Assembly (NCBI GenBank): GCA_963662715.1
Contig: OY759724.1
Span: forward strand, 840,001-872,000
Length of the DNA stretch: 32,000 nt
Reading direction: 5' to 3'
Origin: Candidatus Omnitrophota bacterium
Lineage (GTDB): Bacteria; Omnitrophota; Gorgyraeia; Zapsychrales; JANLHA01
A model generated the notes under the pieces. It had not been told where the DNA came from, did not search any database, and worked only from the letters and a program-made list of their open reading frames with translations. Every line of letters starts with the position of its first letter. Position 1 is the first letter of the stretch. A program made the position numbers and the translations under genes. Positions 1,975-21,226 of this stretch are shown here, in pieces.

Positions 1975-4900
1975 TTAATGCAGATTCAACAACACGGGGA
2001 TATGCTCTAAAGGCAATGTCGAAACATTGATTAAATGCGGGGCGAGTCCCTGCATATTTTCCGGTTCCGGGATATCCACGGAGTATTCCGGCCCCATCCC
2101 CGGCACCGGAGACGGGACATAACGGCGTTCCAGATGCAGCAGGTTGGCATTAAACAAAATACCACCAGGGGTATCGGATTGACCGGCCAACGCTTCGGTT
2201 TCCGTAAGGCTTAAAGGTTCGCGGGCCATAACATCCGTCTCTGCCGCCCCACGGAGGGGACTGCTGACGGCGGTGCCCGGAGCCGGTTCTTTCATCCATT
2301 GCAAAACCCTTATGATATGCGCGATCGTCGTAAAATTATTCAACACATCCTGGTAAGACTTTTCTCCCATAGCCTCAAAAGTCCGGTCTCCGTTCTGCCG
2401 CTGCATATACAGGGTTAAAATCTTCGTCATATAATATTCTGTTTCTGCAATCATAAACTCCTCATACGGCATAGGCCGGCCGTCATGCGCATCCATATAC
2501 GCCTGCACCTGCTCACGGATTTCGGCAATATCCAGAAAAACCTCATCGACGCCCTGCTCCCTCCGGGCCTGATCGCGTCTTATAAGATCATCTACGGTGA
2601 CGCCTTTCTGGCGGTCATGGTCCCGGATCCCGACCAGGAAACCCATGGTCCCGTGCCCGTCCGGGTCCAGCTGACGGCCCAGCCCGCCGGTATCGCCCAA
2701 AATAGATACCGGGCCGGGGTGTACGGTCTCCCGCTGCGTGTCTGCGTCCACAATCCTGCGGCTCTTTCCGTGCAGCTTATTGGCCGTTGCCGCTAAACCG
2801 AATCCCTCTTCCAGGGAATTGGACAGGTTGCTGATAGGCAGAGTCATCAAAGCGTTTAACATGATCTGATGAATATCCGTGGGTGTTAAAACATTCACTT
2901 TAACGGACATCTCCCCCAAAGCCTGTTGCATTTTCCCGTCCGGATCCAGCTGCGGCACCATCAAATCCGGGTCAAGGCCCATACCCCGCAAACGATCCTG
3001 TGTCTGCTGCCACTGCTGCAGTTTTTCCGCCTCTCTTTCAATGTTCGAAGGCGTCCGGCGGCCTTCAAACTCGGCCTTGATATCCTGCTCGGGGTTGGTG
3101 GCGAAGAACAACCGCAGGACAGCGTATTCCAGATCCCCTGTCCCGAAACGGGTATTCAGTTTGGCGTTGATACGGTCCACCCGGCTTTTCAAATCCTCAA
3201 TACCCTCCCAGCCGGGATTATCGCTGGCGACGGGCCCGGTCAGAATGATCCGGATCCGCTGTCCGGCATTCTCGCCTTTGTCATACATCCGTTCAAACGC
3301 TTCCAGGGCCTCTGTCTTTCCCTTTAAGGGATCAACACGGGAATTGTGCGTGTAGAACAAGTCTTCAGCTGTCCTGTCAATCCGCAGATGATCCATGACC
3401 GCATCCACGGTCTGCTGGTTTAATCCGATATTGTAAAATCCGAAAATATCAATAGAGTTCAGGTTGGCGACAACCGGATGCGTGACCGGCAGGATTTTGC
3501 TTTCTTTCCCGTTGATCAGATAGTCATGATACGCGCTGTTGGCATGCGTATCCACAAAGTAAGACAGGAACTGCACTGCGCTCTTGGCTTCGTCACTCCG
3601 GGCGTCAAAAGGAATATGGCCGAACCAGGTAAAGACCGTATCCTTAAAATAAGATTCATAAAATTCCGGGAACTGCCGCTGCAGGATGCGGTATAAAGCC
3701 GCCGGCTGCGGGTCATTGACAATCACATAATGCGGGGCAGGGATATTTTGGGCACGGATCATTTTTATCATGGCGGCGGCATTCCTCATCGTCGTCCAGA
3801 TAAACTGATCTTTCATGTTAGGGGTATGAATGAGCCCCTCTTCTTTTCCGTGGAAAAGATAATGTAAAATAGGCGTTCCTTCTTCCCCGCTGAGATCATA
3901 TTTGAACCATTCCATGTTGAGATTCTCCGGAAAGGCCTTGGCATGGGCTATAAACGCCGAGATGATATCCCCGACGCCGCCGGCAATAGATGAGTTGATC
4001 ATCCAGACTTTTAACGGCTCCCCCTCCTGGGGGACGTACTCTCTTGTGAGGGCTTTAAGTTCGGCAATTTTCTCGGTGTAGTCCGGTGCTTTCATTAAAG
4101 CATCTTCCTGATATCCCTTGATCCCGTCAGTCTCACGTGTGAGGTTGATATTTCTTGATAACCGGGAAACCCGGCCTAGCTCTAATTGCACGGCCCTTTC
4201 CCGGAAACGGGTCAGAAGCGTTTCCCAATCCTGCGGCCGATTGGCTTTCAGATAGGCTTCCAGAGAAGACACCGGGAGCGTCATCGTATTTACGGCCCAG
4301 ACAATAAAGTCCAGATTCTCTTCAGGATTTCTTAAAGCCTCCGGGAGCTTAAGGGCGGCATTAATGATCTTCGTGCGGTCCCGCTGGCTGGTTTCATTGA
4401 ATGTCAAACGGATCTGCTGCAGATACGGGCCGGAAATTCCCATCTCGTCCACCGCATCCCAGAATTGCCGGAACGACCCGTCCCCCACCGAGACAAATTC
4501 CAGAAAAGCGATGTTGGGCAAGCGCCCGTTAGGATTGGCCACGGGATCGCGGAATTTGCGGGCCACCTGACTGGCGACGATAGGAGAACTCTTAACGTCC
4601 AGAATCACCGCAAGATTTTTTGCCGGGGTTATCCCTCCGGAAAAATACTTCCGGGGGACAATCTCCTCGCTCACGGGATCGACTTCCTCCCGGATAAAAT
4701 TGACAACGCCCTGCCGTAAAGTTTCAAAATACTGGTTATAAATCTTCTCTTTATACTCTGTTTCGCTGAGCGCAATCCCCGCAATCTTTTCCTGATTCAC
4801 ATAAACTTTCTTAAGAAAATTTTCTTTTAACGCCTGTTTATACCAGGTCGCCAAGATCATGGCGTGATAAATCTGCCGCAAGCGCGCGAAATGCCGCCCT

Positions 4901-5691
4901 TCATTCACTTCCCGCTCAATAACGGGCACAAGGACATCCCGGACAATCTGGGACGACAAGGCATTGAGTTCTTCGGCCTGCGCTTTGGTCTGGGACGGAT
5001 CACGGCCCAGGACTTCAGACTCAAAATTCTGATCAAGCGCGATAAGATCTTCCTCAAGCATGACCTTCAAATGACTTTCCGCGATATACGCGCTGTTTTC
5101 ATTTTCATAAATAACAGCCTTGTCCGGGATAATCCAGATTTTGTTAAACGTCTGGATCGGAATCTCAATCGTACCGTATTGCTCAATGGCCTCTTGATAG
5201 GTTTTATTCCAAAATTCCCGTCCGGCGGAAGTGTCAGGGTTCATGATAGAAGCAGACAATTTCTTCAAAACATAATCCTGTTCAAGCATTTCGCGGCCCA
5301 TAGCCGTCAGGCTTAAAGTTCCCGGGATGATCTTTTCCTTCTCGTAGGGAGAAAGATTCACCCAAATATCTTCCTCAGGGATTGTTAAAGACGCCAGGAA
5401 ATATTTCGCAAATGTATCAATCTGCTCCTTGGGGACATCCTCCTCTGCCTTAAGATCCTGGCCCGGCAAAATAATGAAATTGACGTTCAGGGGATTATCA
5501 GGATAAATCATAATGCCTTCTAAAAGCGTAGGAATGAAACGGTGATTTAAATCCACGATGAGGCTGTGTTCGGAGGCCACGCCCTGATAGTTCAGCACCT
5601 GGGCATAAGAAAAAGTTGAAGTCAAAAGAAAGCAAGGAATAAAAAGAAAGATCAGCAGATTGTGTGTCATTTTCCGCAAAACAAAAACCAC
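1975..5691 (-). CDS. giant secreted mosaic protein B: signal peptide + conserved N module + TreT/GT4-like glycosyltransferase core + GGIxxN C-terminal module
   Basis: 1238-aa ORF. The GTG start gives MVFVLRK plus a hydrophobic core and SYA|Q (an alternative ATG is at 5670). Residues ~45-353 are about 50% identical by eye to the N module of 10666..14385 (KYFLASLTIPEEDIWVNLSPYEKE, EVNEGRHFARLRQIYH, PRKYFSGG). Residues ~558-1020 carry GT-B/trehalose-synthase-like motifs (VWMINSSIAGGVGDI, VIVNDPQPAAL, NSRVDPLKG, LTGPVASDNPGW, EEGFGLAATA). The C-terminus carries VSSPL...PGGILFN. Confidence 0.85.
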   Translation of the reverse strand: MVFVLRKMTHNLLIFLFIPCFLLTSTFSYAQVLNYQGVASEHSLIVDLNHRFIPTLLEGIMIYPDNPLNVNFIILPGQDLKAEEDVPKEQIDTFAKYFLASLTIPEEDIWVNLSPYEKEKIIPGTLSLTAMGREMLEQDYVLKKLSASIMNPDTSAGREFWNKTYQEAIEQYGTIEIPIQTFNKIWIIPDKAVIYENENSAYIAESHLKVMLEEDLIALDQNFESEVLGRDPSQTKAQAEELNALSSQIVRDVLVPVIEREVNEGRHFARLRQIYHAMILATWYKQALKENFLKKVYVNQEKIAGIALSETEYKEKIYNQYFETLRQGVVNFIREEVDPVSEEIVPRKYFSGGITPAKNLAVILDVKSSPIVASQVARKFRDPVANPNGRLPNIAFLEFVSVGDGSFRQFWDAVDEMGISGPYLQQIRLTFNETSQRDRTKIINAALKLPEALRNPEENLDFIVWAVNTMTLPVSSLEAYLKANRPQDWETLLTRFRERAVQLELGRVSRLSRNINLTRETDGIKGYQEDALMKAPDYTEKIAELKALTREYVPQEGEPLKVWMINSSIAGGVGDIISAFIAHAKAFPENLNMEWFKYDLSGEEGTPILHYLFHGKEEGLIHTPNMKDQFIWTTMRNAAAMIKMIRAQNIPAPHYVIVNDPQPAALYRILQRQFPEFYESYFKDTVFTWFGHIPFDARSDEAKSAVQFLSYFVDTHANSAYHDYLINGKESKILPVTHPVVANLNSIDIFGFYNIGLNQQTVDAVMDHLRIDRTAEDLFYTHNSRVDPLKGKTEALEAFERMYDKGENAGQRIRIILTGPVASDNPGWEGIEDLKSRVDRINAKLNTRFGTGDLEYAVLRLFFATNPEQDIKAEFEGRRTPSNIEREAEKLQQWQQTQDRLRGMGLDPDLMVPQLDPDGKMQQALGEMSVKVNVLTPTDIHQIMLNALMTLPISNLSNSLEEGFGLAATANKLHGKSRRIVDADTQRETVHPGPVSILGDTGGLGRQLDPDGHGTMGFLVGIRDHDRQKGVTVDDLIRRDQARREQGVDEVFLDIAEIREQVQAYMDAHDGRPMPYEEFMIAETEYYMTKILTLYMQRQNGDRTFEAMGEKSYQDVLNNFTTIAHIIRVLQWMKEPAPGTAVSSPLRGAAETDVMAREPLSLTETEALAGQSDTPGGILFNANLLHLERRYVPSPVPGMGPEYSVDIPEPENMQGLAPHLINVSTLPLEHIPVLLNLH

Positions 5692-7299: not shown

Positions 7300-7305
7300 A
7301 GGCTG

Positions 7306-10300
7306 TCATCCTTTGATACCGAATTTACATTCAAAATCCTTCAAAAAAGAATAAATACAGGGGATAAGAATCAATGTAATCAGTGTCCCAAAAATAAGCC
7401 CCCAGGCTAATGCCAGCATCATCTCGGCCAGCATGGCGTCATGACCGGCAAACCCGTAAGCTGTCGGCAAAACACCGGCCACCGTCGTCAGGGTGGTCAA
7501 GACGACCGCCCTGAGCCGCGTCTTAGCAATACCGGCTATCTGCTGATGAGACTGTTTCTTCCCTGCCCCCGGATCATATTCCCTGTCGAGCTTGACCAGC
7601 ATAATGATGGAGTCGTTCACAACCACCCCGGCTAACCCCAAAGCTCCGATAGCCGCAAAAAACCCGAATAAAACTTTCCCGTGCAGCCAGAAAGCCAGAA
7701 CGATACCGACAACGCCGAAAGGGATCGCCAGCATAATGATCAAAGGCCGCAGCAATGAATTAAAAAGCACCGCCAGCACAATATAGATCAATAAAACAAC
7801 CAGCAAGACGGCGCTTATCAGGTCCGCCCGGGATTCTCTCGTGCTTTCCACTTCCCCGGCAAAAGACAATGTGGTCGTCGGATACCGGCTGAGAATTTCC
7901 GGGAAGATGTTTTCCTCGAAATCCTCGGCAATATCAAGCGGGGTATATCCCTTTTTCTTCTTCAGATCCGCGTCGATGATCGTGGTCCGCTTGAGGTCTT
8001 CCCGGGTTATGGAATTAGGAGAACGCACTTTTTCCACATGCACCACGTCCCGCAAAGGCACCAGGTAATTCCCTTTATTTTCGACAGGAAGGTTCAGGAC
8101 TTTCTCTATATCATCTTTGGCCTCATCAACAATCGTAAAACGCACCTGGATATCTTCATCGACCCCGGTAAACTCATAAAGGACGCTGCCTTCGAGGGCT
8201 GCCCGGAATGTCGAGGCAATATCCACGGGATTGATCGAAAGGCGCTTGACCTTATCCCTGTTGATGTCGATCCGGTACTCATCAATATACATGTCCCCGT
8301 CCACCTCGATATTCTCCAGGGCCGGGTGTTCCTTCATTTTCTTCATGAGTTCTTCAACAATCCGCAGCCGTAAAGCATCGTCATTCTGCTGAACCATGAG
8401 TTCAAGCGCGCTGCCCGAATCCTGCCCCCACCGGCTTTTTCTAAAATTCAATTTCTGAAATCCCGAAAAAGATTCCGTGCCCTTCTTTAACTCTTTGACA
8501 ATCTGATCCGCCGATTTCTTCCGTCTCTCCTTGGGCAGGATCTCAAACAGTATCCGGAAATTGTTTTCCTCGACAGCCCCGCCCCGCCTGCTTCTGGCAA
8601 TATCCGTCCTGATGCCGACCTTCTCTTTGGCAAAATTCTTCAGGATAAATTCCTCAATCTTCCGTGTTTCTTCGGCTGTCTCAAAACGCTTCGCCCCCGC
8701 AGGGACTTCTCCGGAAATAACGATGTCCCGCGTCTCCTCGTGCGGGAACATCACAAACTTGAACCGGTGCCTGATCAAGAATCCGGAGAGCACCAGCAGC
8801 GCCACAAAAAACATTAAGACAACTCCCTTATAAGAAAGGATTCTCTGGATGAAACGGCCGTACCGGTCTTCAATCTCTTCAAACCAATGACTCTGGCGGC
8901 TGGCTTTAGGGACAGCTTTGTTTCTCCCGTTTAACTTGTTCAGGAAAGGGATCCTCAAGTCCATGTGCCCGGGAAGAATAAAAATGGACTCAAGGAAACT
9001 CGCCCCCAGAACAAGGAATATGATCGTCGGAATAGGCTGAATGAATTTCCCGAAATGCCCTTCAAAAAAATAAAGCGGGATGAAAGCCACACACGTTGTA
9101 ATAATGCTGGCTAAAACAGGCAACATCACATAGGCCGTGCCTTTCACGACCGCTTCTCTTCGCGCCATCCCCTGATTCGTCAGCCGCGTGATATTCTCGG
9201 CAACGACAATCGCATCATCGACAATGATCCCCATGACAATGATGATGGCCGCGAGCGTCATCCCGTTTATGGTGTGTCCCATTAAAGGGGCGAGGATAGC
9301 CGTAAAACAAAGCGTGAAAGGTATCCCCATGGCCACCCACAGCCCCGCCCGTCTGTTAAGAAAAACGAACAGGGTGATGACAATCAGGACGAACCCGATC
9401 GTTCCGTTTAACGCAATAAGGGACAGCCTGTTGCGGATATCAATGGATTCGTCATCCAGGAGCACCAGTTTGAGCGGAGTATCTTTAAGATTATTCTCCC
9501 GGAAGCGGTCCACAACTTTATTGACGCTGTCAAGAGCTTCAATAATTCCGTACGAACTGTTTTTGACAACATTTAAAATGACCGCCTGCCGGCCGTTGAC
9601 TTTTTGGATCTCTTTGCTTTTCTCAAAACCTTCGATAATATCAGCGACCTCCCCCAGCCGGACAACCTGCCCGTCAAACCCGCCCTGAATGATCAGATCC
9701 TTCAGTTCCTGCGGGGTATCCAATTCAGAAACCAGCGTGACCTGGGGTTCTTCCCGGGTTTCGATGGTCCCGGCGGGTTTTCGGACATGGTTATTTTTAA
9801 TCTCCTCCATGACCGTGTTGAACGGGATCTCATATTTAAGAAGTTTCTGCGGCTGAACTTTTATCTGCAGCTCTTCCTGCAGATAACCGCGCCGGTTAAC
9901 ACTATTGACATGGGAAAGATTCAGGAGCTGATTTTCAAGGGCAAAAGCATATTTCTGCAGGTCGCGCCTTTGTTCCGCATTCAAGATGTGGATATCATCA
10001 TTATAAAGAGCGATATCAATAATAGCCTTTTTGCTTGTTTTAAAGACCCGGATGTTGGGGTCATCAACGATCTCATCCGGCAGATCCACATCCAGGACAG
10101 TGTTCCTGATTTCCGTCACCACCTCATCTATATTGGGATAATCCTGCTCGATCTCTATCGAAACGCTGGACGTCCCTACACTTGAGGTGCTGGTGACTTT
10201 ATGCACCCCGTCCAGCCCCCGGACAGCTTCCTCTATGGGCTTGCTGACAAAATATTCGACATCTTCGGCCGGAGCCCCTTGATAGTTCACAGAAACCCTG

Positions 10301-10440
10301 ACCCTGTCAAACGTGATGTCCGGCAGTTCCTCCTTGCTGGTGTTATTCCAGGAAAATATCCCGCAGATAAAGATTGAAACAAATATAAGGTTGGTGAGAA
10401 GATGTCTTTTAGCGAAGTAAGCTATAAGTTTTTCAAGCAT
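7306..10440 (-). CDS. RND efflux transporter permease (AcrB/HAE1-like)
   Basis: 1044 aa. The N-terminus (MLEKLIAYFAKRHLLTNLIFVSIFICGIFSW), the two large periplasmic loops and the 12-TM layout are characteristic of AcrB-family pumps. Confidence 0.9.
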   Translation of the reverse strand: MLEKLIAYFAKRHLLTNLIFVSIFICGIFSWNNTSKEELPDITFDRVRVSVNYQGAPAEDVEYFVSKPIEEAVRGLDGVHKVTSTSSVGTSSVSIEIEQDYPNIDEVVTEIRNTVLDVDLPDEIVDDPNIRVFKTSKKAIIDIALYNDDIHILNAEQRRDLQKYAFALENQLLNLSHVNSVNRRGYLQEELQIKVQPQKLLKYEIPFNTVMEEIKNNHVRKPAGTIETREEPQVTLVSELDTPQELKDLIIQGGFDGQVVRLGEVADIIEGFEKSKEIQKVNGRQAVILNVVKNSSYGIIEALDSVNKVVDRFRENNLKDTPLKLVLLDDESIDIRNRLSLIALNGTIGFVLIVITLFVFLNRRAGLWVAMGIPFTLCFTAILAPLMGHTINGMTLAAIIIVMGIIVDDAIVVAENITRLTNQGMARREAVVKGTAYVMLPVLASIITTCVAFIPLYFFEGHFGKFIQPIPTIIFLVLGASFLESIFILPGHMDLRIPFLNKLNGRNKAVPKASRQSHWFEEIEDRYGRFIQRILSYKGVVLMFFVALLVLSGFLIRHRFKFVMFPHEETRDIVISGEVPAGAKRFETAEETRKIEEFILKNFAKEKVGIRTDIARSRRGGAVEENNFRILFEILPKERRKKSADQIVKELKKGTESFSGFQKLNFRKSRWGQDSGSALELMVQQNDDALRLRIVEELMKKMKEHPALENIEVDGDMYIDEYRIDINRDKVKRLSINPVDIASTFRAALEGSVLYEFTGVDEDIQVRFTIVDEAKDDIEKVLNLPVENKGNYLVPLRDVVHVEKVRSPNSITREDLKRTTIIDADLKKKKGYTPLDIAEDFEENIFPEILSRYPTTTLSFAGEVESTRESRADLISAVLLVVLLIYIVLAVLFNSLLRPLIIMLAIPFGVVGIVLAFWLHGKVLFGFFAAIGALGLAGVVVNDSIIMLVKLDREYDPGAGKKQSHQQIAGIAKTRLRAVVLTTLTTVAGVLPTAYGFAGHDAMLAEMMLALAWGLIFGTLITLILIPCIYSFLKDFECKFGIKG

Positions 10441-10625: not shown

Positions 10626-10666
10626 AAGAAAAACACAGGGATCTTTGTCCCTCCCGGGAACCCTGT
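10626..10666 (-). terminator. putative intrinsic terminator directly after giant gene A
   Basis: The minus strand reads ACAGGG-(20 nt, with an inner AGGGA/TCCCT stem)-CCCTGT followed by GTTTTTCTT. It overlaps the stop codon. Confidence 0.4.
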
Positions 10667-13600
10667 TAATTCGTATGCCCCACAAAAGACATGGAAGCAT
10701 CGACCGGTGCGATATGAACAATGACCGGGACAAGACCTTCGATATGGATATTTTCAACCGGCTGCTGCTGAAAAGACAACGGAATGCCCCGGCCGTCACG
10801 TTTGATCTGCATGTCCAGCAAGTCCAGGTTCAAATCAATACCACCGGGGGCCGAATAAGCCGTCATGTCATCAACTTTTTCAAGGGGAGAAGAAACAAGT
10901 GCTGTGCCCGCTTCTTCCGGAAGAAGCAGCGCCGCCTCATTGATCACCGTGACCGGATAGGACAAGGCCGTTCCTGTCAGGGCGTGCTGGATGAGTTCAC
11001 CCAAATCCTTCGGCGTGCCTTCATCACGCTGAATAGAGATCGCAATATCAACCCCATGCTCCCTGACTTGGTCTACGTCGATCTCATCCTGCGTCATCAA
11101 CACGACTCTTATGCCGACAGACTCCTTTCTTAACGAAGCGATCTGGGCTTTTAGCTCTTCGGTGACATGCCCCCGGAAAACAGCCACCCCTGTTCCGGCA
11201 TCCACATCTCCGACGCTTTTCTGCACGCGGGAAAAGATTTCCCCTAACAGACTAACCGATCTTTCAATAAACTCGGGATGATCATCCGCATAAACGATAT
11301 TTTTCTCCGCTGCTCCCATGACCGCATCCATCTCATTGACAAATTCGTCCGGAGTTATTCCCAGATGACTGGCCCTGTTTTCCACATATTCGGCGGAAAC
11401 ATTACTCGCATTGGCGATTCTGGTCTTGGCCTCGGCGATATCCGCACTTTTCAATCTGGTCCTCAAAATAAAGCTGGCGCCGTCCGGGGTTACCAGCAGG
11501 GTGTTAACCGTTGCCGTGTTCGTTTCTTTGTCAAAATTGATGCGTTTCATGAGCCTGGCCATGGTCGGGCCAAACTGATGAGGAGAAGCCCCGGTCACGG
11601 CACTCATCGCAACCGCCCCTTTCCCGGTGAATACCGGGCGCCGGCCCATATAATCAGCCTCAGAATACCCGTTGGCGGAAAAGCTCTGCAGTTCTTTATC
11701 CGTGTAGTCTTTGGCTACTTCGGCGGCGACCAGATCTGCCGTTGCCGTTTTCGAAACGTTCTCGCTGACAAACTGCCCGTTGGGAACAAGGCCCGCGACG
11801 ACTTCCGCCATGGAAGCCTCGGCAGAACCGCTGCGTTTAAAAGTCACCATATGATACCCGTCCAAATCCAGCCCCAGCGAAGACACTTCCCTGGCCGCAT
11901 AATCGCCATCCCCGGGCGTATAAAGCCGCAGCCCCGGATATTTTTCCTGCAGCTTCACCGCGTCGGCAATATCCAAACGGTTTCTGTGATCTCCGGAATC
12001 ATCTACGCCTTTCTGATACCCCTTGGCCCGCGGCCCGAGCATGACGACAAGAGTATGGTTAATATAATTATCAACGTACTCGTCGAATGCGGCAGTATTT
12101 TCCTCCAGCCCCTGGGCCAAAGCATTCGACCGGGCAATTTTAGGAAGAGCCACAGAAGGCAGATCAAGGTAATTCACACCGGCTTCATCCGGGGCATAAA
12201 AACTGATCCCGGCTATACGGGAATTATCATCCACCGGGTTGCGCGGGGCATCATGAATATCGGCATATTCATCACTCACTAAAGCCGCCAGGGCCCAGCT
12301 GTCTTTAATATTCTGCACCAAAGCGTTGGTATGCTCTAAGCCGTCATCGGCGGAGAATTCGATGTCAACACCCAGGCGTCTTAAACGGACAATTTCCTCG
12401 TCACGTTCGACTTTCGACCGGAACCACGCCTCATTAAAAACCGCTTCCAGTTGTCCGACCGTTGCCCCGTCGAATTCTCCGGATACTTTGCTGCGGATAG
12501 CATCGAAATCCTTTTTAAAATGCCCCTGCCCTCTGTCATTAACGTAACCGAACCATTCTTTGTCCATAAGCGTGTTAATGATATTGTCCACAACATCAAC
12601 GTCAATCCCTTGCTTGATGAAATCGTCTCTGGTGATCAAGCCAAAATCCCGAAAAAGTTTGCCGTCTGTTTCATTATACCCGGAATAATAAATACGGTTG
12701 AGTTCAATAAAGAATGACGCGTCCCGTTTCCCTTCGGAAGCCCAGGTCACCACGGCTTTATCGGGATACAGCTGGACATAAAGTTTACGGCTTTCATGGG
12801 TCGCGTCAACCGCGTTTCCGTCCCCTATTTCTTTACCGTCCTTTCCCTGGCCGGCAAAAAGGATAGACGCCAGGGCCTGAGCGACAGAGGTGGCATAAAC
12901 GGAGTTGACCATCGGGTCACTTAAGATCGTCTGAATATCGACATCCTCTCTGCCCTCACTCAGCTGTAAGGCGGTGACCTCGGCATTCGGGAAAAATCCG
13001 TGTCGCGTAATAAACTGCATCATGTCCTGATTAATGGCGATGATGTCCGTTCCCCTTTCCGCCATCAAATCCTGAATAGGAGATGATGCTGTTTTAACCC
13101 CTTTCACGGGGTAGGAAAATGTCCGGGCCATTTCTGTCTCAGAGGCGGCCGGGCCAACGTCAAGCGCACGGAAGGTGACAAGACGGTCTTTTCCGATCGG
13201 AGAAGAAGCTTTTTCCAGGACATGCCGCGGCTGGGTCAGAGGGGATCCGCTTCGCCGGGAACGGTTGACTCTTTGCGTAATCGTCACCCCTCCGGCCATA
13301 GAGGAAAAACCGCCGGAGAAATATTTCCGGGGAGTCATTTTCTGAGTATCGGGATCGATATCTTCCTTAATATAATTGTAGACGCCTTTTTGAAAAGCAG
13401 CCAGATACTGGCTGTATATCTTTTTCTTTATATCGCGGTCCTCCAGATCAATGCCTTTAATTTTGTTCTGGTCAACATAAAGCTGTCCCAGCAAAGTCTC
13501 TTTTAAGGCCCCCTTGTACCAGGCTGCCAATATCAGAGAATGATACACCTGTCTTAATCTGGCAAAATTCTGTCCTTCGTTCACTTCCTTCTCAATTTCC

Positions 13601-14385
13601 GGCAGAATGACTTCCCGTAAGATATCGGACCCTAACTTATTAACGTCTTTAACTTGTTCTTCCGTCATTTTCGCGGCCACCGGGCCGTTCTCTGCCGCGC
13701 TTTTAGATAAAGTCAAGTAATCTTCCTCCAGCATAACCTTAAGATGACTTTCGATAATAAAGACGCTGCCGTTGTATTCCCACACCTCGGCTTTGTCCGG
13801 GACAATCCACACTTTATTAAACGTATTAACGGGGATATTGGCTGTCCCGAGAATATCCTCGGCTTTTTTATAAATTTTCTGCCAAAACCTTTCGCCCAAG
13901 GCTTCTTCCGGATATAGCAAAGACGCCGTCAGCTGTTTTAATAAATAATCCTGGGCCAGAAGATCCCGCCCCATTTCCGTAACGCCGAAGTCATCGGGAA
14001 CAATACGCTCTTTTTCATAAGGAGATAAATTTACCCACAAATCTTTTTCCGGAACAGTGAGAGAAGCCAGAAAATATTTGATCAGGGTGTTGGCTTCTTC
14101 CTGAAACGCTCCCCCGTCCAATGCGGCATCCCCGGTATCAATAATAAAATCAAACTCCAAAGGATTCTCCGGATGCAGCGTCATCCCCCGCACAATGGTC
14201 GGAGTATATCCAGCACTCTTTTGGACCATGCTCCCCGGAGCAGGCAAATCCAGGACCGTCTGCACAGAGCGCGCATAAACGGTCTGCGGACTCAGAATGA
14301 AGGCTGCCAGAAACGGGACAAGGACAAACACGGATATAACTCTTTGGAAATATTTAAGTTGTGATTTAGGGCCGATAATGGTCAT
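10666..14385 (-). CDS. giant secreted mosaic protein A: signal peptide + conserved N module + GlpX (class II FBPase)-like core with insertions + GGIDLN C-terminal module
   Basis: I chose the ATG at 14385 because of the GGAGAaattcac SD; the ORF track uses the TTG at 14415. The N-terminus is MTIIGPKSQLKYFQR plus a hydrophobic core and VYA|RS. The N module is paralogous to gene B. Core segments resemble E. coli GlpX: AGQGKDGKEIGDGNAVDA vs GRGDKNTADGAAVNA; LVVMLGPRAKG...GLRLYTPGDGDYAA vs VTILAKPRHD...GVRVFAIPDGDVAA. The C-terminus carries VSSPLEK...PGGIDLNLDLLDMQIKRDGRGIPL...IEGLVPVIVHIAPV. Confidence 0.85.
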   Translation of the reverse strand: MTIIGPKSQLKYFQRVISVFVLVPFLAAFILSPQTVYARSVQTVLDLPAPGSMVQKSAGYTPTIVRGMTLHPENPLEFDFIIDTGDAALDGGAFQEEANTLIKYFLASLTVPEKDLWVNLSPYEKERIVPDDFGVTEMGRDLLAQDYLLKQLTASLLYPEEALGERFWQKIYKKAEDILGTANIPVNTFNKVWIVPDKAEVWEYNGSVFIIESHLKVMLEEDYLTLSKSAAENGPVAAKMTEEQVKDVNKLGSDILREVILPEIEKEVNEGQNFARLRQVYHSLILAAWYKGALKETLLGQLYVDQNKIKGIDLEDRDIKKKIYSQYLAAFQKGVYNYIKEDIDPDTQKMTPRKYFSGGFSSMAGGVTITQRVNRSRRSGSPLTQPRHVLEKASSPIGKDRLVTFRALDVGPAASETEMARTFSYPVKGVKTASSPIQDLMAERGTDIIAINQDMMQFITRHGFFPNAEVTALQLSEGREDVDIQTILSDPMVNSVYATSVAQALASILFAGQGKDGKEIGDGNAVDATHESRKLYVQLYPDKAVVTWASEGKRDASFFIELNRIYYSGYNETDGKLFRDFGLITRDDFIKQGIDVDVVDNIINTLMDKEWFGYVNDRGQGHFKKDFDAIRSKVSGEFDGATVGQLEAVFNEAWFRSKVERDEEIVRLRRLGVDIEFSADDGLEHTNALVQNIKDSWALAALVSDEYADIHDAPRNPVDDNSRIAGISFYAPDEAGVNYLDLPSVALPKIARSNALAQGLEENTAAFDEYVDNYINHTLVVMLGPRAKGYQKGVDDSGDHRNRLDIADAVKLQEKYPGLRLYTPGDGDYAAREVSSLGLDLDGYHMVTFKRSGSAEASMAEVVAGLVPNGQFVSENVSKTATADLVAAEVAKDYTDKELQSFSANGYSEADYMGRRPVFTGKGAVAMSAVTGASPHQFGPTMARLMKRINFDKETNTATVNTLLVTPDGASFILRTRLKSADIAEAKTRIANASNVSAEYVENRASHLGITPDEFVNEMDAVMGAAEKNIVYADDHPEFIERSVSLLGEIFSRVQKSVGDVDAGTGVAVFRGHVTEELKAQIASLRKESVGIRVVLMTQDEIDVDQVREHGVDIAISIQRDEGTPKDLGELIQHALTGTALSYPVTVINEAALLLPEEAGTALVSSPLEKVDDMTAYSAPGGIDLNLDLLDMQIKRDGRGIPLSFQQQPVENIHIEGLVPVIVHIAPVDASMSFVGHTN

Positions 14386-14613: not shown

Positions 14614-16059
14614 CTAAACATTTTTAATAAATGACCGGGTAAAACAATCCGCCAGCCTTCCTTTTTTTAGTTCTCCCAACAGAGCCGCGCCAAGAAGAAC
14701 AGGTATGGACAAAACAAACAAAATCAGCTCCGAAGCCCTGAAAAACCGCACTTCAAAAATATTCTTTTTCAATAATTTGATAAACCGGCCGGGCGTATAA
14801 AAAGCATAATGCATCCTTCGCCCTATCTTTTTCAGGGCCGCGTGACTGTATTTATCAGAATAGAGCTCTCCTCTGTCTGTAATATGATATCCCGGAGTTT
14901 TTTCCGCCAGTTCTCTTAAAGACGAAAACTTCTCTATCCTTAATTTATTATATGTCACCCCATCAACGCCTATTTCCTTGGCAAATTCAGGGATATAAAG
15001 CATCTCCTCCTCTGTTTCCCCGATATTGCCAAAAATAAAATAACCGTGAAAGTAAATAGGATATTGAGTCAGCACCTTAAAGGCCTCCCTGATCTTACGG
15101 GAATTAAAACCTTTATTAAACTGTTCAAGGACCCAATCATGCGGAGACTCGATCCCCACCAAAAGAGCCTTAAATCCGGCTTTAACCATTTTATCCAGCA
15201 AACGCGGATATCCGGCGATGTCGATTCTCGTCTGGGCGATGAACCTTTTTTTCAATTTGCGTGCGATAATTTCATCGCAGAGTTTCTCGGCCCTCTTTTT
15301 ATTGGCAAAGACTTCATCATCCCCGAACAAAATCACTCCGGCGGGAATACTTTCAATCTCATCCACGACAGATTTGATACTGCGCTCGGAGTATTGCCGC
15401 TTCTGTCCTAAAGGATTCAAGTTGAATGTGCAAAATTTACAATTGAACGGACATCCTCTCGCGGTTAAAACGGAATCGAACGAGAGGTTGGCCACATTAA
15501 TCCCATTCAAGGCAAGACGGTATTTCGACCGTCTTAAGCTGCGGTCCGGGGGCGGGATTTGATCTGCCGCAACAAATGGTCTGAAACCATTATGAATGAG
15601 TTCCCCTTGCTCCCGATAGGATATCCCCAATATGTCCTTACGCGGGACACCGCTTAATATGTCCTTAATCGTCATTTCCCCTTCACCCCGGACAACGATA
15701 TCAACGGTGTCGCACTGCTCCAGCAGTTCATCGGCACGCTCTGTCGCTTTATATCCTCCGATGACCAAAAGAATATCCTTCGGCAGTTTGTTGAGCAAAT
15801 CGCAAATCTGCTGGAACTGCCGGTCCCACGTGATACTCACTCCGATAAAATCAATCTTTTCCTGTCTGATAAATTCCAGCAAATTATTAACATCGCATAA
15901 TTCTTTTTCCTGCCTTAAATCAATGACCGTCACTTTATGCATATACTCCTTAGCGCTCGTAGCGACGTATTCAAGGCCAACGGGCGGATACATCCGCATG
16001 GCACTGGTAGAACTGCTTTCCGTATAAGGGTTAAGAAATAGTCCGTGCTGATATTTCAT
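14614..16059 (-). CDS. B12-binding-domain radical SAM protein
   Basis: 481 aa. The N-terminus has a Rossmann-like B12-binding region (LLVIGGYKATERADELL, DIVVRGEGE), followed by the radical-SAM motif CPFNCKFC. A hydrophobic helix sits at the C-terminus. Confidence 0.8.
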   Translation of the reverse strand: MKYQHGLFLNPYTESSSTSAMRMYPPVGLEYVATSAKEYMHKVTVIDLRQEKELCDVNNLLEFIRQEKIDFIGVSITWDRQFQQICDLLNKLPKDILLVIGGYKATERADELLEQCDTVDIVVRGEGEMTIKDILSGVPRKDILGISYREQGELIHNGFRPFVAADQIPPPDRSLRRSKYRLALNGINVANLSFDSVLTARGCPFNCKFCTFNLNPLGQKRQYSERSIKSVVDEIESIPAGVILFGDDEVFANKKRAEKLCDEIIARKLKKRFIAQTRIDIAGYPRLLDKMVKAGFKALLVGIESPHDWVLEQFNKGFNSRKIREAFKVLTQYPIYFHGYFIFGNIGETEEEMLYIPEFAKEIGVDGVTYNKLRIEKFSSLRELAEKTPGYHITDRGELYSDKYSHAALKKIGRRMHYAFYTPGRFIKLLKKNIFEVRFFRASELILFVLSIPVLLGAALLGELKKGRLADCFTRSFIKNV

Positions 16060-16247: not shown

Positions 16248-16652
16248 TCAAGGTTGCAACAAATATTCTGCGGCAGCTTTTAAAAATGTCATGACCGCCA
16301 GGACGGCGCAGTGATTAAAATCAGCCGGCAATCCGTCAAGCCGGTCAAGAATCATTTTGGGCGAGATAGCCAAAGCCTCTTCCAGTCTTTTTCCCGAAAC
16401 AAATTGTGCCGCAACGGAACCGCAGGCACGCGTGGAAACACAGCCATCCGTATAAAAACTTGCCTGCTCAATAACCCCCTCTTTAATATAAAGATAAAAT
16501 TCCATGGAATCCCCGCAGGCCCCTTTCATAAAAGCTGAACTCGTAAAATCGTTCATTCTGGTATAGAGAGGAGGATTCCGGGCCAAATCCACAATCGCCC
16601 GGGGATATACGGACACATCCCTCTCAACAGGCGATTCATTAAAATCGTTCAT
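16248..16652 (-). CDS. NifU/IscU-like Fe-S cluster scaffold (N-terminal domain type)
   Basis: 134 aa. The conserved Cys residues are present in GACGDSMEF, TDGCVSTRACGS and NHCAVLA. An AAGGAG SD is present. Confidence 0.8.
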   Translation of the reverse strand: MNDFNESPVERDVSVYPRAIVDLARNPPLYTRMNDFTSSAFMKGACGDSMEFYLYIKEGVIEQASFYTDGCVSTRACGSVAAQFVSGKRLEEALAISPKMILDRLDGLPADFNHCAVLAVMTFLKAAAEYLLQP

Positions 16653-16805
16653 CCCCGGCTCCTTGTTTTATTGAAATATCATTGGCTCCCGGGAATTTGC
16701 TCTAATCATCTTTCCCGGGCCTTTATAAGAGATAGCATATTGCCTCTGACTAGGCAAGTCTTTAATGCACGAAATGTTTCTACAGCGGCAGTAATTGCGG
16801 CAGTC

Positions 16806-17294
16806 TTATTTTTGCGGATTTTTTTTTTGCTTCATTTCAAAATCAATTCTCTTTAAAAAGGGCAAATAATCTATAATAAGCTTCCCCTCCAGGTGGTCGA
16901 TCTCATGCTGAAGCACCGTCGCCATAAAGTCCTTGGCCTTGATCTCCTGAACCGCCCCCCTTTCATTGAGCCCTTTGACTATTATTTCATAACTGCGCAG
17001 GACTTTCACCTGCATATCCGGCACACTCAAACACCCTTCTTCTAACATACTAGTCCCTTTTTTATGAACTATCTCGGGATTGGCTAAAAAGAGCGCCCCT
17101 TCCCCTATATCAACAACAATCATCTGCTCGGCAATACCAACCTGCGGGGCGGCTAATCCTACACCTTTAAAATAATGCATTGTCGACAACATCTGCCGGG
17201 AAAGAGTCTGCTCCCTTTCTGTGATCCCCTTAACCGGCTGACATTTCATCCGCAAAACTTCCTCGGGATAGGTCTTGATCTGCAAAAGATTCAT
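16806..17294 (-). CDS. def: peptide deformylase
   Basis: 162 aa with all three signature motifs: GVGLAAPQVG, EGCLSVP and HEIDHLEG. Its ATG overlaps the stop of the upstream radical SAM gene by 4 nt. Confidence 0.93.
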   Translation of the reverse strand: MNLLQIKTYPEEVLRMKCQPVKGITEREQTLSRQMLSTMHYFKGVGLAAPQVGIAEQMIVVDIGEGALFLANPEIVHKKGTSMLEEGCLSVPDMQVKVLRSYEIIVKGLNERGAVQEIKAKDFMATVLQHEIDHLEGKLIIDYLPFLKRIDFEMKQKKNPQK

Positions 17295-18070
17295 AACACT
17301 TTGCCTCTTCTCTTTAAAGTATCACCGTCACTCAACGGGGCAACAGTCTTCTTCTCTGCTTTATATACAAAAACAGTGCTGACGCCACGGAAATAAATCC
17401 CCACCCTATCCAGTTCAGCCTCGGATAAAGGGTTGACCCGGCAGGGCCTCAGCGGTGTGTTGATCTGGACTTCGTCCGGACGAATGGACTTGACAATCTG
17501 CGCGATATCTTCCGCACAGGCTTTATTCTCTCCGATAAACATAATCTGCAAGGCCAATTTTCCCTGATAGACATTCCTGAACGATTTGAGACCGGAGATA
17601 ATATCCGCAAGCTTCACTGTCTTAAAAGGCGCATTGACCGAAGAAAAAACGTCTTGTGTGGGAGCATCAAGTTTCGCGACCACCAGATCCGCTGAGGACA
17701 GATCCTCCTGCACGTCTTTTCTCGGCAATAAAGAGGAATTCGTTATAACGGCGACCTTCTCTTTTCTGGTCTGTTTGACAGCTCTGATCATCTCTCCCAG
17801 GTTAGCGGCCAGGGTCGGTTCCCCGGCTCCGGAAAATGTAACGGTATCTATCGTCAGAGGAGGCAGGGAATTCAACTCTTTAATAATATCCTCACAATCG
17901 ATAAAATGATGTCTTTCGTCCGTTAAAAGCCCGGTCTTTCCGACCTGGCAGTAGATACAGTCATAACTGCAGACCTTTCTTCCTTTGGAGACAGGATCTA
18001 TCCCTAACGAACGCCCCAGCCGCCAGGACGGTACGGGGCCGTAAATATATCTAAATTTTTTGACAGTCAT
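17291..18070 (-). CDS. radical SAM protein (COG0731-like, YGPVPS(W/R)RLGRSLG N-terminus)
   Basis: 259 aa. It carries CSYDCIYC (CxxxCxxC) and the SAM-binding-like motif FSGAGEPT. It overlaps the 3' end of the Mrp gene by 20 nt. Confidence 0.8.
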
Positions 18071-19845: not shown

Positions 19846-19867
19846 AAGACCTCGTTCCTGAAAGACA

Positions 19868-21217: not shown

Positions 21218-21226
21218 ACTCTCCCC

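What the first reader, a model, noticed from the sequence alone, without database searches (positions are those of the whole stretch)
10669..10896. Shared C-terminal tail (SSPL ... PGGI[DL]xN ... GLxPxI) and SSP[IL] hinges flanking the variable cores
Seen: A ends with VSSPLEKVDDMTAYSAPGGIDLNLDLLDMQIKRDGRGIPLSFQQQPVENIHIEGLVPVIVHIAPV... B ends with VSSPLRG...TPGGILFNANLLHLERRYVPSPVPG...MQGLAPHLINVSTLPLEHIPVLLNLH (B coordinates 1978..2271). SSPI also occurs right after the N module: in A at 13195..13206 and 13075..13086, and in B at 4579..4590, all verified at the nucleotide level. Both proteins therefore read: signal peptide, N module, SSPI, variable enzyme core, SSPL, GGIxxN tail. Inference: this is a cassette architecture. 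The tail could be a sorting, secretion or anchoring signal, and the SSP[IL] sites could be linker or processing sites.
Basis: partly seen in the sequence, partly recalled or inferred. Interest (0 to 1): 0.75.

Follow-up and report, generated by a model that had tools for sequence, protein, structure and literature searches.

The report
Conserved tail of exported Omnitrophota enzymes
The short C-terminal tail is real: it closes a two-part "bracket" (a 350-residue head plus a 60-residue tail) that an uncultured bacterial phylum, Omnitrophota, puts around thousands of different exported, cysteine-free enzymes, and no protein-family library, solved structure or paper I could search describes it.

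Summary
Protein A (10666-14385, minus strand) carries a canonical copy of a about 60-residue tail, GGIDLNxxLLDxQIKRDGxGxPL...EGxxPVIxxIxPV. It scores 81.6 bits (E 1e-24) against a profile built from 117 other proteins. Protein B (1975-5679, minus strand) carries a divergent copy, which is conserved among its four orthologues.

The tail profile finds 4,561 protein clusters in 1.84 billion, always near the C-terminus. In 51 of 51 complete genes from Omnitrophota genomes, the tail shares its reading frame with the same 350-residue N-terminal module.

Members have Sec-type signal peptides and almost no cysteine. The cysteines they keep are catalytic ones. Their cores are unrelated: glycolytic enzymes, glycosyltransferases, receiver domains, radical SAM.

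[AGS]SP[VILM] is 12-fold enriched, lies between domains and is selected at the protein level. Other lineages use D.[AS]M instead.

My best reading (about 0.45) is that the tail is not a free-standing sorting tag. It is the C-terminal half of a split carrier, and its beta-strand docks on the N-terminal module. AlphaFold2 predicts that strand only when the rest of the protein is present.

Pfam, NCBIfam, PDB and the searchable literature gave no match. Where these proteins end up is unknown.

The parts
10666..14385 (-). Protein A, 1239 aa. Start ATG at 14385; stop codon at 10668-10666. Family member with a canonical tail and no cysteine at all.
   Evidence: Identical to database protein P0001. 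Cysteine count.
14272..14385 (-). A: Sec-type signal peptide, residues 1-38. It has K/R in the n-region, the hydrophobic core VISVFVLVPFLAAFIL, and a VYA|R cleavage-type site.
   Evidence: Read. 121 of 139 family members pass simple Sec-signal rules. N-termini are listed. No dedicated signal-peptide predictor was available.
13309..14271 (-). A: N-module core, running from LDLPAPGSMV to PRKYFSGG.
   Evidence: Family N-module HMM gives 575 bits, E 2e-174. 45% identical to B. No match in Pfam, NCBIfam or PDB.
13195..13206 (-). A: SSPI no. 1. It lies in the variable loop between the N core and the conserved post-N strand.
13153..13194 (-). A: conserved post-N beta-strand element GKDRLVTFRALDVG (family pattern h-x-V-x-h-x-h-h-E-N or D-V-G). 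It is the last conserved piece before the cargo.
   Evidence: The element recurs 30-70 residues after RKYFSGG across the family. The equivalent residues 400-409 are a strand with pLDDT about 82 in the P0078 model.
13075..13086 (-). A: SSPI no. 2, the hinge before the cargo.
10897..13074 (-). A: variable core (cargo), about 726 aa, with no recognisable domain.
   Evidence: Pfam finds nothing at E<=5, and PDB sequences give nothing significant. Partly shared with P0004, P0006 and P0013.
10882..10893 (-). A: SSPL hinge, 16 residues before GGIDLN.
   Evidence: The family-wide position is 0-25 residues before the tail.
10681..10851 (-). A: conserved tail APGGIDLNLDLLDMQIKRDGRGIPLSFQQQPVENIHIEGLVPVIVHIAPVDASMSFV.
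   Evidence: 81.6 bits, E 1e-24 against a profile of 117 other tails. The tail profile finds 4,561 clusters.
10702..10734 (-). A: tail beta-strand LVPVIVHIAPV, the proposed docking strand.
   Evidence: The equivalent residues 680-690 of P0078 form an 11-residue strand with pLDDT about 90 in the full-length model. In the tail-only model they are coil with pLDDT about 70-75.
1975..5679 (-). Protein B, 1234 aa. The database start is at 5679; the longest ORF starts at 5691. Family member with a divergent tail. Its only cysteine is in the signal peptide.
   Evidence: Identical to P0247.
5602..5679 (-). B: signal peptide MRKMTHNLLIFLFIPCFLLTSTFSYA|Q.
4633..5601 (-). B: N-module core. It lacks the LNLPxPG motif that begins the mature protein in most members.
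   Evidence: 446 bits against the family N-module HMM. Motif loss shown.
4579..4590 (-). B: SSPI, conserved in all four orthologues.
4483..4527 (-). B: post-N strand element GRLPNIAFLEFVSVG.
   Evidence: Conserved (near-invariant) in the orthologues.
3073..3999 (-). B cargo: GT-B glycosyltransferase resembling trehalose synthase (TreT / GT20). All hits are below the curated cut-offs.
   Evidence: PF21269 E 3e-5, PF00982 E 7e-3. NF041139 E 1e-10 and TIGR02398 E 1e-5, the latter reaching residue 873.
2254..2265 (-). B: SSPL hinge before the tail. It is kept in three of the four orthologues and is GSPL in the fourth.
1984..2172 (-). B: divergent tail TPGGILFNANLLHLERRYVPSPVPG...MQGLAPHLINVSTLPLEHIPVLLN. 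It keeps GGI..N and the strand region but lacks QIKRDGxGVPLP.
   Evidence: 5.7 bits, E 0.46, but collinear over the full model and second-best hit in the window. z = 3.9 against A's tail. 63% invariant columns among five orthologous sequences.

Best explanation
**What it is (shown).** A and B belong to a very large protein family found, as far as sampled, only in Omnitrophota. Every member reads, in order:
1. a Sec-type signal peptide;
2. a roughly 330-residue N-terminal domain ending in RKYFSGG;
3. a variable loop;
4. one conserved beta-strand;
5. a variable cargo of 270 to more than 4,500 residues, made of one or several ordinary enzyme or signalling domains;
6. a roughly 60-residue tail, GGI[DN][LF]N..L.LQIKRDG.G.PLP..QQP....I.GF.PVII....P;
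7. a short, variable, acidic end.

**How the tail works (inferred).** The tail is not an independent address label. The N domain, the post-N strand and the tail are the two halves of one carrier, and the cargo sits between them like an insertion in a hairpin. The tail's hydrophobic strand (LVPVIVHIAPV in A) docks by beta-strand addition onto the N-terminal half. It could dock on the same molecule, closing the loop, or on a neighbouring molecule.

**The hinge motif (part shown, part inferred).** [AGS]SP[VILM] is a protein-level punctuation mark of the inter-domain linkers. Other lineages use D.[AS]M in the same places. The pattern suggests recognition by a factor that differs between lineages, possibly a protease. 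No such factor was identified.

**Export (inferred).** The whole protein is exported unfolded through Sec. That would explain why cysteine has been purged except where catalysis needs it.

**Not resolved.** The final location is unknown: periplasm, cell surface or a prey cell.
For: **Family and architecture**
- 117 of the 120 best N-module homologues carry the tail motif 55-110 residues from their end, although their Pfam contents are unrelated.
- The tail profile finds 4,561 clusters at E<=1e-3 and 2,009 at E<=1e-10. The tail is near the C-terminus in all 150 best hits.
- All 79 loci from a one-genome-per-species collection are Omnitrophota MAGs. Some are labelled only 'uncultured Planctomycetales', 'uncultured bacterium' or 'bacterium'.

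**Coupling of tail and N module**
- In 51 of 51 complete genes, tail and N module share the reading frame. Two further cases are split by a frameshift.
- Long, complete tail hits all carry the N module.
- Mean pairwise identity is 60% for both modules, and their pairwise identities correlate (Mantel r 0.34; 0 of 500 permutations reach it).

**Docking**
- In the full-length AlphaFold2 model of the 731-residue member P0078, the tail strand is an 11-residue strand at pLDDT about 90.
- The tail itself holds no partner strand of comparable length.
- The long N-module hairpin (residues 186-213) and the post-N strand (400-409) are confident, at pLDDT 82-90.
- The same tail modelled alone is coil at pLDDT about 70-75.

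**Export**
- 121 of 139 members pass simple Sec-signal rules.
- Mature parts contain 0.036% cysteine, and 94 of 138 members have none. Cytoplasmic proteins in this window have 1-4%.
- The cysteines that remain are catalytic: SCASCTTN in a GAPDH cargo and CxxxCxxC in radical-SAM cargos.

**Hinges**
- [AGS]SP[VILM] occurs 221 times against 18.8 expected. D.[AS]M occurs 169 times against 31.2 expected.
- The two motifs exclude each other between proteins: 44 SSP-only, 40 DxAM-only, 2 with both (rho -0.41, p 6e-7).
- None of 32 SSP sites lies inside a Pfam domain; they flank the REC, PGI, PGK and PRK domains.
- The five sites in the window use different codons, from both serine codon families.
Against: - No atomic coordinates were available, so the partner of the tail strand is inferred from secondary structure and confidence values only.
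- The full-length model is mediocre overall (mean pLDDT 63), and AlphaFold2 can create spurious intramolecular pairings.
- A covariation test between the N module and the tail with 169 sequences gave only noise.
- No cargo-free 'empty carrier' was found. The shortest insert is 267 residues.
- Strict co-occurrence would also arise if two independent functions were both always needed.
- Sec export of cargos that need ATP, NAD, UTP, SAM or Fe-S clusters is hard to reconcile with a periplasmic site of action.
- No signal-peptide predictor and no experimental data were available.
Confidence: 0.45

Rival explanations
1. **Autonomous C-terminal sorting or secretion signal.** After Sec export, the tail is recognised in trans by an outer-membrane translocon or a sortase-like enzyme. 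This would be analogous to the T9SS C-terminal domain, a dockerin or the CTERM signals. The N module would do something separate.
For: - The tail has a conserved C-terminal position on very diverse exported cargos.
- Members have a Sec signal and exclude cysteine.
- About a quarter of members also end in a short ...[EQ]-L-S-x-L-[NKR] motif.
- A C39-peptidase ABC exporter lies near family genes in 7 of 79 loci.
Against: - The tail was never seen without the N module in complete genes.
- It is not at the extreme C-terminus; 0-75 variable residues follow it.
- It has no transmembrane helix plus basic cluster.
- It matches no NCBIfam or Pfam sorting or dockerin model, even at E<=5.
- No neighbouring gene is conserved; the best is present in 8 of 79 loci.
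- Its strand is not predicted when the tail is modelled alone.
Confidence: 0.2
2. **Prey- or host-delivered effector repertoire.** The N module is a membrane-insertion or translocation device, and the cargos act inside another cell's cytoplasm. The tail keeps the N module closed, or is needed for translocation. This rival concerns the purpose of the system and is compatible with the docking model.
For: - The cargos are cytoplasm-type and keep their catalytic residues. They include GAPDH (about 52% identical to ordinary GAPDH), PGK, PGI, TIM, PGM, UGPase, radical SAM, REC, GGDEF, HTH and DnaJ. Such domains need ATP, NAD, SAM or Fe-S assembly.
- Sec export combined with cysteine exclusion is typical of proteins that cross membranes unfolded (the generalisation rests on my own knowledge).
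- The family is large, paralogous and often in tandem arrays.
- An Omnitrophota member is described as an ultramicrobial predator (PMC12583861). The phylum is reported to have host-dependent traits (PMC10066038).
- Foldseek's weak hits include the ClyA-type toxins MakA, MakB and MakE.
Against: - The Foldseek hits are not significant (E 0.05-0.4, probability <=0.14, TM about 0.13).
- No hydrophobic membrane-insertion hairpin is evident.
- Glycolytic and glucan-synthesis enzymes are odd weapons.
- Nothing here shows delivery.
- It is not known whether the genomes also hold free cytoplasmic copies of the same enzymes.
Confidence: 0.15
3. **The A-B tail resemblance is chance or shared composition.** Only the N modules would be homologous.
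For: - Full-length BLASTP does not report the tails as significant (E about 4).
- B scores only 5.7 bits (E 0.46) against the family tail profile.
Against: - A matches the family tail at E 1e-24.
- B's match is collinear over the whole model, sits at the C-terminus and is the second-best hit in the window.
- Tail against tail gives z = 3.9.
- B's tail is as conserved among its orthologues as its N module: 63% against 69% invariant columns.
- Every other complete N-module gene examined has a tail.
Confidence: 0.03
4. **The SSP motif is a DNA-level element.** It would be a recombination or shuffling site at cassette junctions rather than a protein feature.
For: - The motif sits at module junctions.
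- One 9-mer, TCCTCGCCG, accounts for 27 of 97 sites in related loci.
Against: - The five sites in the window use five different nucleotide strings, including AGY and TCN serine codons.
- There are 44 distinct 9-mers at 97 sites.
- The residue after SSP is restricted to V, I, L, M or A in 201 of 225 cases.
- Other lineages use an unrelated motif, D.[AS]M, at the same places.
Confidence: 0.02

Closest known systems
Type IX secretion C-terminal domain (T9SS CTD, Bacteroidota)
   Same: Many paralogous proteins combine a Sec signal peptide, unrelated enzyme cargos and one conserved C-terminal module.
   Different: - The T9SS CTD is an 80-100-residue beta-sandwich at the very end of the protein and needs no conserved N-terminal domain.
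- Here the tail is about 60 residues, is followed by a variable extension and is always paired with a 350-residue N module.
- NCBIfam models for T9SS sorting domains gave no hit.
Dockerin modules of cellulosomal enzymes
   Same: A short conserved C-terminal module on diverse exported enzymes, used to attach them to a partner domain.
   Different: - A dockerin is a duplicated calcium-binding segment (Pfam PF00404) that binds a cohesin on a separate scaffold protein.
- There was no Pfam hit here, even at E<=5.
- Here the presumed partner, the N module, is in the same polypeptide.
PEP-CTERM / LPXTG / GlyGly-CTERM type sorting signals (exosortase, sortase, rhombosortase)
   Same: C-terminal signatures shared by many exported proteins within a lineage.
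   Different: - Those signals are a short motif, a transmembrane helix and a basic cluster at the extreme C-terminus.
- This tail has no such helix or basic end, and its extension is acidic.
- NCBIfam gave no hit.
Donor-strand complementation in chaperone-usher and type V pilins
   Same: A terminal beta-strand completes a sheet of another domain or subunit. This is the proposed way the tail strand works.
   Different: - Pilins are small, single-domain structural subunits without enzyme cargos.
- There is no sequence or fold match here.
- Strand docking here is only inferred from predictions.
Polymorphic toxin / effector families with conserved trafficking domains
   Same: Large paralogous families in which a conserved N-terminal domain is joined to interchangeable modules, often in gene arrays.
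   Different: - Those families vary only at the C-terminus and carry toxins with immunity genes.
- Here the variable part is internal and bracketed on both sides.
- Here the cargo consists of housekeeping-type enzymes and signalling domains.

Membership tests
T9SS C-terminal sorting domain | Match to curated CTD models (for example the NCBIfam Por_Secre_tail type) | tested here: not met
   NCBIfam scan of A and B at E<=0.01 found no such family. Pfam scan of the 77-residue tail at E<=5 found nothing.
T9SS C-terminal sorting domain | The domain forms the extreme C-terminus and occurs without a shared N-terminal domain | tested here: not met
   A variable extension of 0-75 residues follows the tail. 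The tail is always accompanied by the N module.
PEP-CTERM / LPXTG / GlyGly-CTERM sorting signals | Tripartite end: signature motif, hydrophobic transmembrane helix, basic cluster | tested here: not met
   The tails listed end in acidic or polar extensions and contain proline-broken hydrophobic strands. NCBIfam gave no hit.
Dockerin | Duplicated calcium-binding segment matching Pfam PF00404 | tested here: not met
   Pfam gave no hit at E<=5 on the tail, and none on the whole proteins.
Type I secretion (RTX) substrates | GGxGxDxUx nonapeptide repeats, a C-terminal signal and no N-terminal Sec signal | tested here: not met
   There is a single GGI[DN][LF]N, not a repeat array. 121 of 139 members have a Sec-type N-terminal signal.
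ClyA-type alpha-pore-forming toxins (MakA / MakB / MakE) | Significant fold match of the N module to the elongated helical bundle with a beta-tongue | tested here: inconclusive
   Foldseek against PDB gave MakE at E 0.05 with probability 0.14 and TM about 0.14. MakA and MakB were weaker. The model has mean pLDDT 63.
The family described here (Omnitrophota N module plus GGIDLN tail) | Sec-type signal peptide, and the N module ending in RKYFSGG | tested here: met
   A scores 575 bits and B 446 bits against the family N-module HMM. Signal peptides read.
The family described here (Omnitrophota N module plus GGIDLN tail) | C-terminal tail matching the family profile | tested here: met
   A: 81.6 bits, E 1e-24. 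B is met only as a divergent variant: 5.7 bits, collinear with the model, and conserved in its orthologues.
The family described here (Omnitrophota N module plus GGIDLN tail) | Cysteine exclusion in the mature protein | tested here: met
   A has 0 cysteines in 1239 residues. B has 1, inside the signal peptide.

The most novel reading that the evidence does not exclude
Omnitrophota send a large part of their sugar-phosphate metabolism and signalling machinery out of the cytoplasm on a dedicated carrier made of the N module and the tail. The cargos include glycolysis, glucan, trehalose and sucrose synthesis, receiver and GGDEF domains, and radical SAM enzymes. The destination would be either an extracytoplasmic metabolic compartment of these ultra-small cells or the cytoplasm of the cells they prey on. 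In that reading the bracket is the targeting and translocation apparatus of a previously unknown protein-delivery system, and the [AGS]SP[VILM] / D.[AS]M marks are the cleavage sites that release the cargos.
Probability: 0.25. Interest if true: 0.95.

Novelty: categorically new. Interest (0 to 1): 0.8.

Why it matters
Omnitrophota are abundant, uncultured, ultra-small bacteria. One member is described as a predator, and the biology of the phylum is mostly guessed from gene lists.

If thousands of their 'glycolytic', 'glycogen synthase' or 'response regulator' genes are in fact exported, cysteine-free modules held in a common bracket, two things follow:
- Metabolic reconstructions that count these genes as ordinary cytoplasmic enzymes need re-reading.
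- The bracket marks a large, unstudied system for placing enzymes outside the cytoplasm.

The findings also give tools that can be used at once:
- two profiles (N module and tail) for annotating thousands of 'hypothetical proteins';
- precise candidate processing sites that existing proteomes can test;
- a natural, very tolerant scaffold for displaying cargos from 270 to more than 4,500 residues.

Tried and rejected
**Searches that found nothing**
- Pfam and NCBIfam on whole proteins, and Pfam at E<=5 on the isolated N module and tail: nothing.
- N-module profile against all PDB sequences at E<=10: no hit.
- Foldseek of the model against PDB: nothing below E 0.02.
- Literature: no description in Seymour 2023, West-Roberts 2023, the 2026 complete-genome preprint, Williams 2021 or Lonsing 2025. 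The motif strings occur in no paper. Kizina 2022 (PMC9004380) is not held, so prior mention there cannot be excluded.

**Analyses that were uninformative**
- Mutual information with APC correction between the N module and the tail, 169 sequences: noise.
- Conserved gene neighbourhood: none. The best neighbour cluster is in 8 of 79 loci. The A-RND-OEP-B order is not kept next to a B orthologue.
- Search for an 'empty carrier' without cargo: none in 209 members.
- Source organism name: exact look-ups gave no names or accessions.
- GAPDH-cargo search, meant to reveal free Omnitrophota GAPDHs: it returned only generic GAPDHs at about 50% identity, so it says nothing on that question.
- Correlated loss in B-type proteins of LNLPxPG at the mature N-terminus and QIKRDGxGVPLP in the tail. 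This is one lineage only, and other members with divergent tails keep LNLP, so I did not use it as evidence.

**Technical failures**
- The first large alignment failed in the tool.
- The broad tail alignment was too diverse for the locus finder.

**Ideas rejected**
- SSP as a DNA motif.
- C39 double-glycine cleavage at the invariant GG of RKYFSGG and GGIDLN: the residues upstream of the tail's GG are not conserved.
Full report
**1. The observation**

The window holds two long minus-strand genes. A is 10666-14385 (1239 aa) and B is 1975-5679 (1234 aa).
- In A: VSSPL at 10896-10882, PGGIDLN from 10848, SSPI at 13206-13195 and 13086-13075.
- In B: SSPI at 4590-4579, SSPL at 2265-2254, PGGILFN from 2169.

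The N-terminal 350 residues of A and B are 45% identical (E 9e-99).

The tails are another matter. Full-length BLASTP does not find them significant (E about 4). A tail-against-tail alignment scores z = 3.9 against shuffles, and 0.4% of shuffles reach the observed score. Taken alone, the A-B tail resemblance is marginal.

**2. The family**

Searching A against 5.8 billion proteins gave more than 4,700 hits through the N module. The named ones are nearly all from Omnitrophota or Omnitrophica metagenome bins. Their lengths run from 727 to 2,164 residues, and the domains in the middle differ widely:
- class I and II aldolase, GAPDH, TIM, PGK, PGI, PGM, FBPase;
- UDP-glucose pyrophosphorylase, starch-synthase-type and sucrose-synthase-type glycosyltransferases;
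- PfkB kinases, HEAT repeats, receiver domains, GGDEF, PP2C;
- radical SAM, HTH, DnaJ and others.

In 117 of the 120 best hits, GGI[DN][LF][ND] lies 55-110 residues from the end. It opens a well-conserved block: GGIDLNPxLLDLQIKRDGNGVPLPxxQQPIxxMxIEGFxPVIINVTPVxNLPxLLG.

I built a profile from 117 tails, leaving A out.
- A scores 81.6 bits (E 1e-24).
- B scores only 5.7 bits (E 0.46).
- B's match is still the second-best hit in the whole six-frame window, is collinear over the full model and lies at the C-terminus.

B has four orthologues at 80-84% identity. Across B and these four, the odd tail is about as conserved as the rest of the protein: 63% invariant columns, against 69% for the N module and 75% for the core. 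Both SSP sites are kept. B therefore carries a derived but maintained version of the tail.

**3. Spread, and coupling to the N module**

A tail profile searched against 1.84 billion cluster representatives found 4,561 proteins at E<=1e-3 and 2,009 at E<=1e-10. In all 150 best hits the tail lies 4-87 residues from the C-terminus.

A scan of one genome per species returned 79 loci. All are Omnitrophota bins, although some are labelled only 'uncultured Planctomycetales', 'uncultured bacterium' or 'bacterium'.

Among reading frames lying wholly inside those loci:
- 51 of 51 tails share the frame with an N module.
- Two more cases are obvious frameshift splits.
- All other tail-only or N-only cases are cut by a contig or locus end, except one tail-only frame that begins 54 nt from a contig end.
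- Genes often stand in tandem.

The insert between the N core and the tail measures 267 to 4,519 residues, with a median of 1,046. No cargo-free member was seen.

The N module and the tail have the same mean pairwise identity (60%). Their pairwise identities correlate (Mantel r 0.34; 0 of 500 permutations reach it).

**4. Other shared features**

*(a) Signal peptide.* All members start with a Sec-type signal. It has a K/R-rich n-region, a hydrophobic core of about 17 residues and an A-x-A or YAQ site. The mature protein then usually begins LNLPxPGTMV. 121 of 139 members pass simple rules.

*(b) Cysteine exclusion.* Cysteine is almost absent.
- Mature parts contain 0.036% cysteine, and 94 of 138 members have none.
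- A has none in 1,239 residues. B has one, inside its signal peptide.
- Cytoplasmic proteins encoded in the same window have 1-4%.
- The few cysteines kept are catalytic: SCASCTTN in the GAPDH cargo of P0002, and CxxxCxxC in two radical-SAM cargos.
- That GAPDH cargo is about 52% identical to ordinary type I GAPDHs, including that of Bacillus subtilis.

The cargos therefore look like working enzymes under strong pressure to lose cysteine. This fits export, and fits crossing a membrane unfolded.

*(c) A further conserved strand.* It lies 30-70 residues after RKYFSGG. In A it is GKDRLVTFRALDVG and in B GRLPNIAFLEFVSVG. It follows that A's first SSPI lies inside the conserved N part, not at its end.

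**5. The hinges**

- Of 225 SSP occurrences in 120 members, 201 are followed by V, I, L, M or A. Most are preceded by A, S or T.
- In the cargo and linker parts of 135 non-redundant members, [AGS]SP[VILM] occurs 221 times against 18.8 expected.
- A second motif, D.[AS]M, occurs 169 times against 31.2 expected.
- The two motifs exclude each other between proteins: 44 SSP-only, 40 DxAM-only, 2 with both (Spearman -0.41, p 6e-7).
- In five members scanned with Pfam, none of 32 SSP sites lies inside a detected domain. They sit a few residues before or after the REC, PGI, PGK and PRK domains. For example, SSPINKILLVDD starts a receiver domain.
- Spacing between sites is domain-sized, even in members of 2,600-4,000 residues.
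- The five sites in the window use five different nucleotide strings, with serine codons of both families. Ninety-seven sites in related loci use 44 different 9-mers. Selection therefore acts on the protein, not the DNA.

A four-residue motif kept in otherwise free linkers, with a lineage-specific alternative, suggests recognition by some factor. A protease is the obvious candidate, but that is inference.

**6. Structure**

AlphaFold2 was run on the shortest clean member (P0078, 731 aa) with 48 aligned sequences. Overall quality was mediocre, with mean pLDDT 63.
- The N module was mostly confident (pLDDT 70-95).
- The post-N strand (residues 400-409) had pLDDT about 82.
- Linkers were low.
- The tail segment FLPVIINITPI formed an 11-residue beta-strand at pLDDT about 90.
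- Nothing else in the tail could pair with that strand.

The same tail modelled alone, with a 52-sequence alignment, has no strand there, and pLDDT is about 70-75. Only the small turn around IKRDGKGIPLP keeps its local contacts.

The tail strand thus appears only when the rest of the protein is present. The likely partners are the long N-module hairpin (186-213) and the post-N strand. I had no coordinates, so this step is inferred.

Other structural tests:
- A mutual-information test gave nothing.
- Foldseek found no solved relative below E 0.02. Small IF3-C-like matches and insignificant matches to ClyA-type Mak toxins were the best.
- The N-module profile hits no PDB sequence at E<=10.
- Pfam and NCBIfam have no model for either module.

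**7. What it most likely is**

The simplest account of strict co-occurrence, equal conservation and context-dependent folding has three parts:
- The N domain, the post-N strand and the tail are two halves of one carrier.
- The cargo sits between two strands, like an insertion in a hairpin.
- The tail docks back by strand addition, in cis or onto a neighbour.

The refinement is that the tail is part of the frame rather than a free address tag.

I put this at about 0.45. An autonomous sorting signal gets 0.2. A purpose-level rival, compatible with docking, is a delivery system for prey cells, at 0.15. Chance and DNA-motif explanations are essentially excluded.

**8. The unsolved puzzle**

Receiver domains, GGDEF, HTH, DnaJ, radical SAM and ATP-, UTP- or NAD-dependent sugar-phosphate enzymes make little sense in an ordinary periplasm. 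Yet the signal peptides and the cysteine purge say these proteins leave the cytoplasm.

Either these ultra-small cells run metabolism in an extracytoplasmic space, or the proteins act in another cell. One member of the phylum is described as an ultramicrobial predator (PMC12583861). Host-dependent traits are reported across the phylum (PMC10066038). Giant Omnitrophota proteins with similar 'cytoplasmic' domains have also been predicted to be extracellular (bioRxiv 10.1101/2023.11.21.568195). Nothing here decides between the two readings.

**9. Context in the window**

- An RND pump (7306-10440) and an outer-membrane factor (5878-7299) lie between A and B, with no adaptor gene. This order is not kept next to a B orthologue.
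- No neighbouring gene is conserved across 79 loci. A C39-peptidase ABC exporter occurs in 7 of them.
- The rest of the window is an iron and Fe-S cluster of genes.

**10. Novelty**

Neither module is in Pfam (2025 copy), NCBIfam (2026) or PDB. The motif strings occur in no searchable paper, and the Omnitrophota papers I could read do not mention the architecture.

Kizina et al. 2022 could not be read, so an earlier mention there cannot be ruled out. On what I could test, this is an undescribed family and an undescribed way of framing exported enzymes. Its mechanism and destination remain to be shown.

Noticed in passing
window 5878-10440 (minus strand): An RND efflux permease (7306-10440) and an outer-membrane factor (5878-7299) lie directly between A and B with no periplasmic adaptor (MFP) gene. 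A occupies the place where the adaptor gene usually sits. The arrangement is not kept next to a B orthologue in another genome (L080).
   Followed up: partly
family-wide; in the window, A (10666-14385) and B (1975-5679): Extreme cysteine avoidance. Mature parts contain 0.036% cysteine, and 94 of 138 members have none. Cysteines remain only at catalytic sites (GAPDH SCASCTTN, radical-SAM CxxxCxxC). Neighbouring cytoplasmic proteins have 1-4%.
   Followed up: yes
related proteins, e.g. P0002, P0048, P0067, P0089, P0134, P0188: About 40 of 135 members (those with at least two copies) use D.[AS]M (DAAM, DNAM, DGAM and similar) in place of [AGS]SP[VILM] at the same inter-domain positions. The two motifs are almost mutually exclusive between proteins.
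   Followed up: partly
related proteins, extreme C-terminus (e.g. P0014 ...EEVSYLN, P0015 ...QLSFLN, P0047 ...PVSLLN, P0110 ...QVSYLN): Roughly a quarter of members end with a short motif, [EQ]-x-[LV]-S-x-L-[NKR], after the acidic extension. This could be a second C-terminal signal. A and B do not clearly have it.
   Followed up: no
loci L040 and six others (cluster 2): A C39-peptidase-containing ABC exporter lies near family genes in 7 of 79 loci. Both ends of the bracket carry invariant Gly-Gly (RKYFSGG and GGIDLN). However, the residues upstream of the tail's GG are not conserved, as a double-glycine leader would require.
   Followed up: partly
window 4633-5601 and 1984-2172 (B) and its orthologues P0248-P0251: B-type proteins have lost both the LNLPxPG motif at the mature N-terminus and the QIKRDGxGVPLP part of the tail. 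This may hint that those two elements work together. It is one lineage only, and other members with divergent tails keep LNLP.
   Followed up: partly
window 16248-30067 (minus strand): A dense iron and Fe-S gene set. It contains NifU-like, Mrp/NBP35, two Fer4-CbiA ATPases, two NifX/NifB-type FeMo-cofactor-domain proteins, DUF5320, two Fur-family regulators and a ferritin. It also holds peptide deformylase, two radical SAM genes (one B12-binding, at 14614-16059) and a pyridine-nucleotide disulphide oxidoreductase.
   Followed up: no
window 24119-25873 (minus strand): A 584-residue ORF with 9 cysteines and no Pfam match, inside the iron and Fe-S gene set.
   Followed up: no
related loci L010, L052, L062, L042, L067, L069: Family genes stand head-to-tail in tandem arrays, sometimes only 3-80 nt apart. 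Several exceed 2,700 residues. Database members reach 4,969 residues (P0229) with the same N module and tail.
   Followed up: partly
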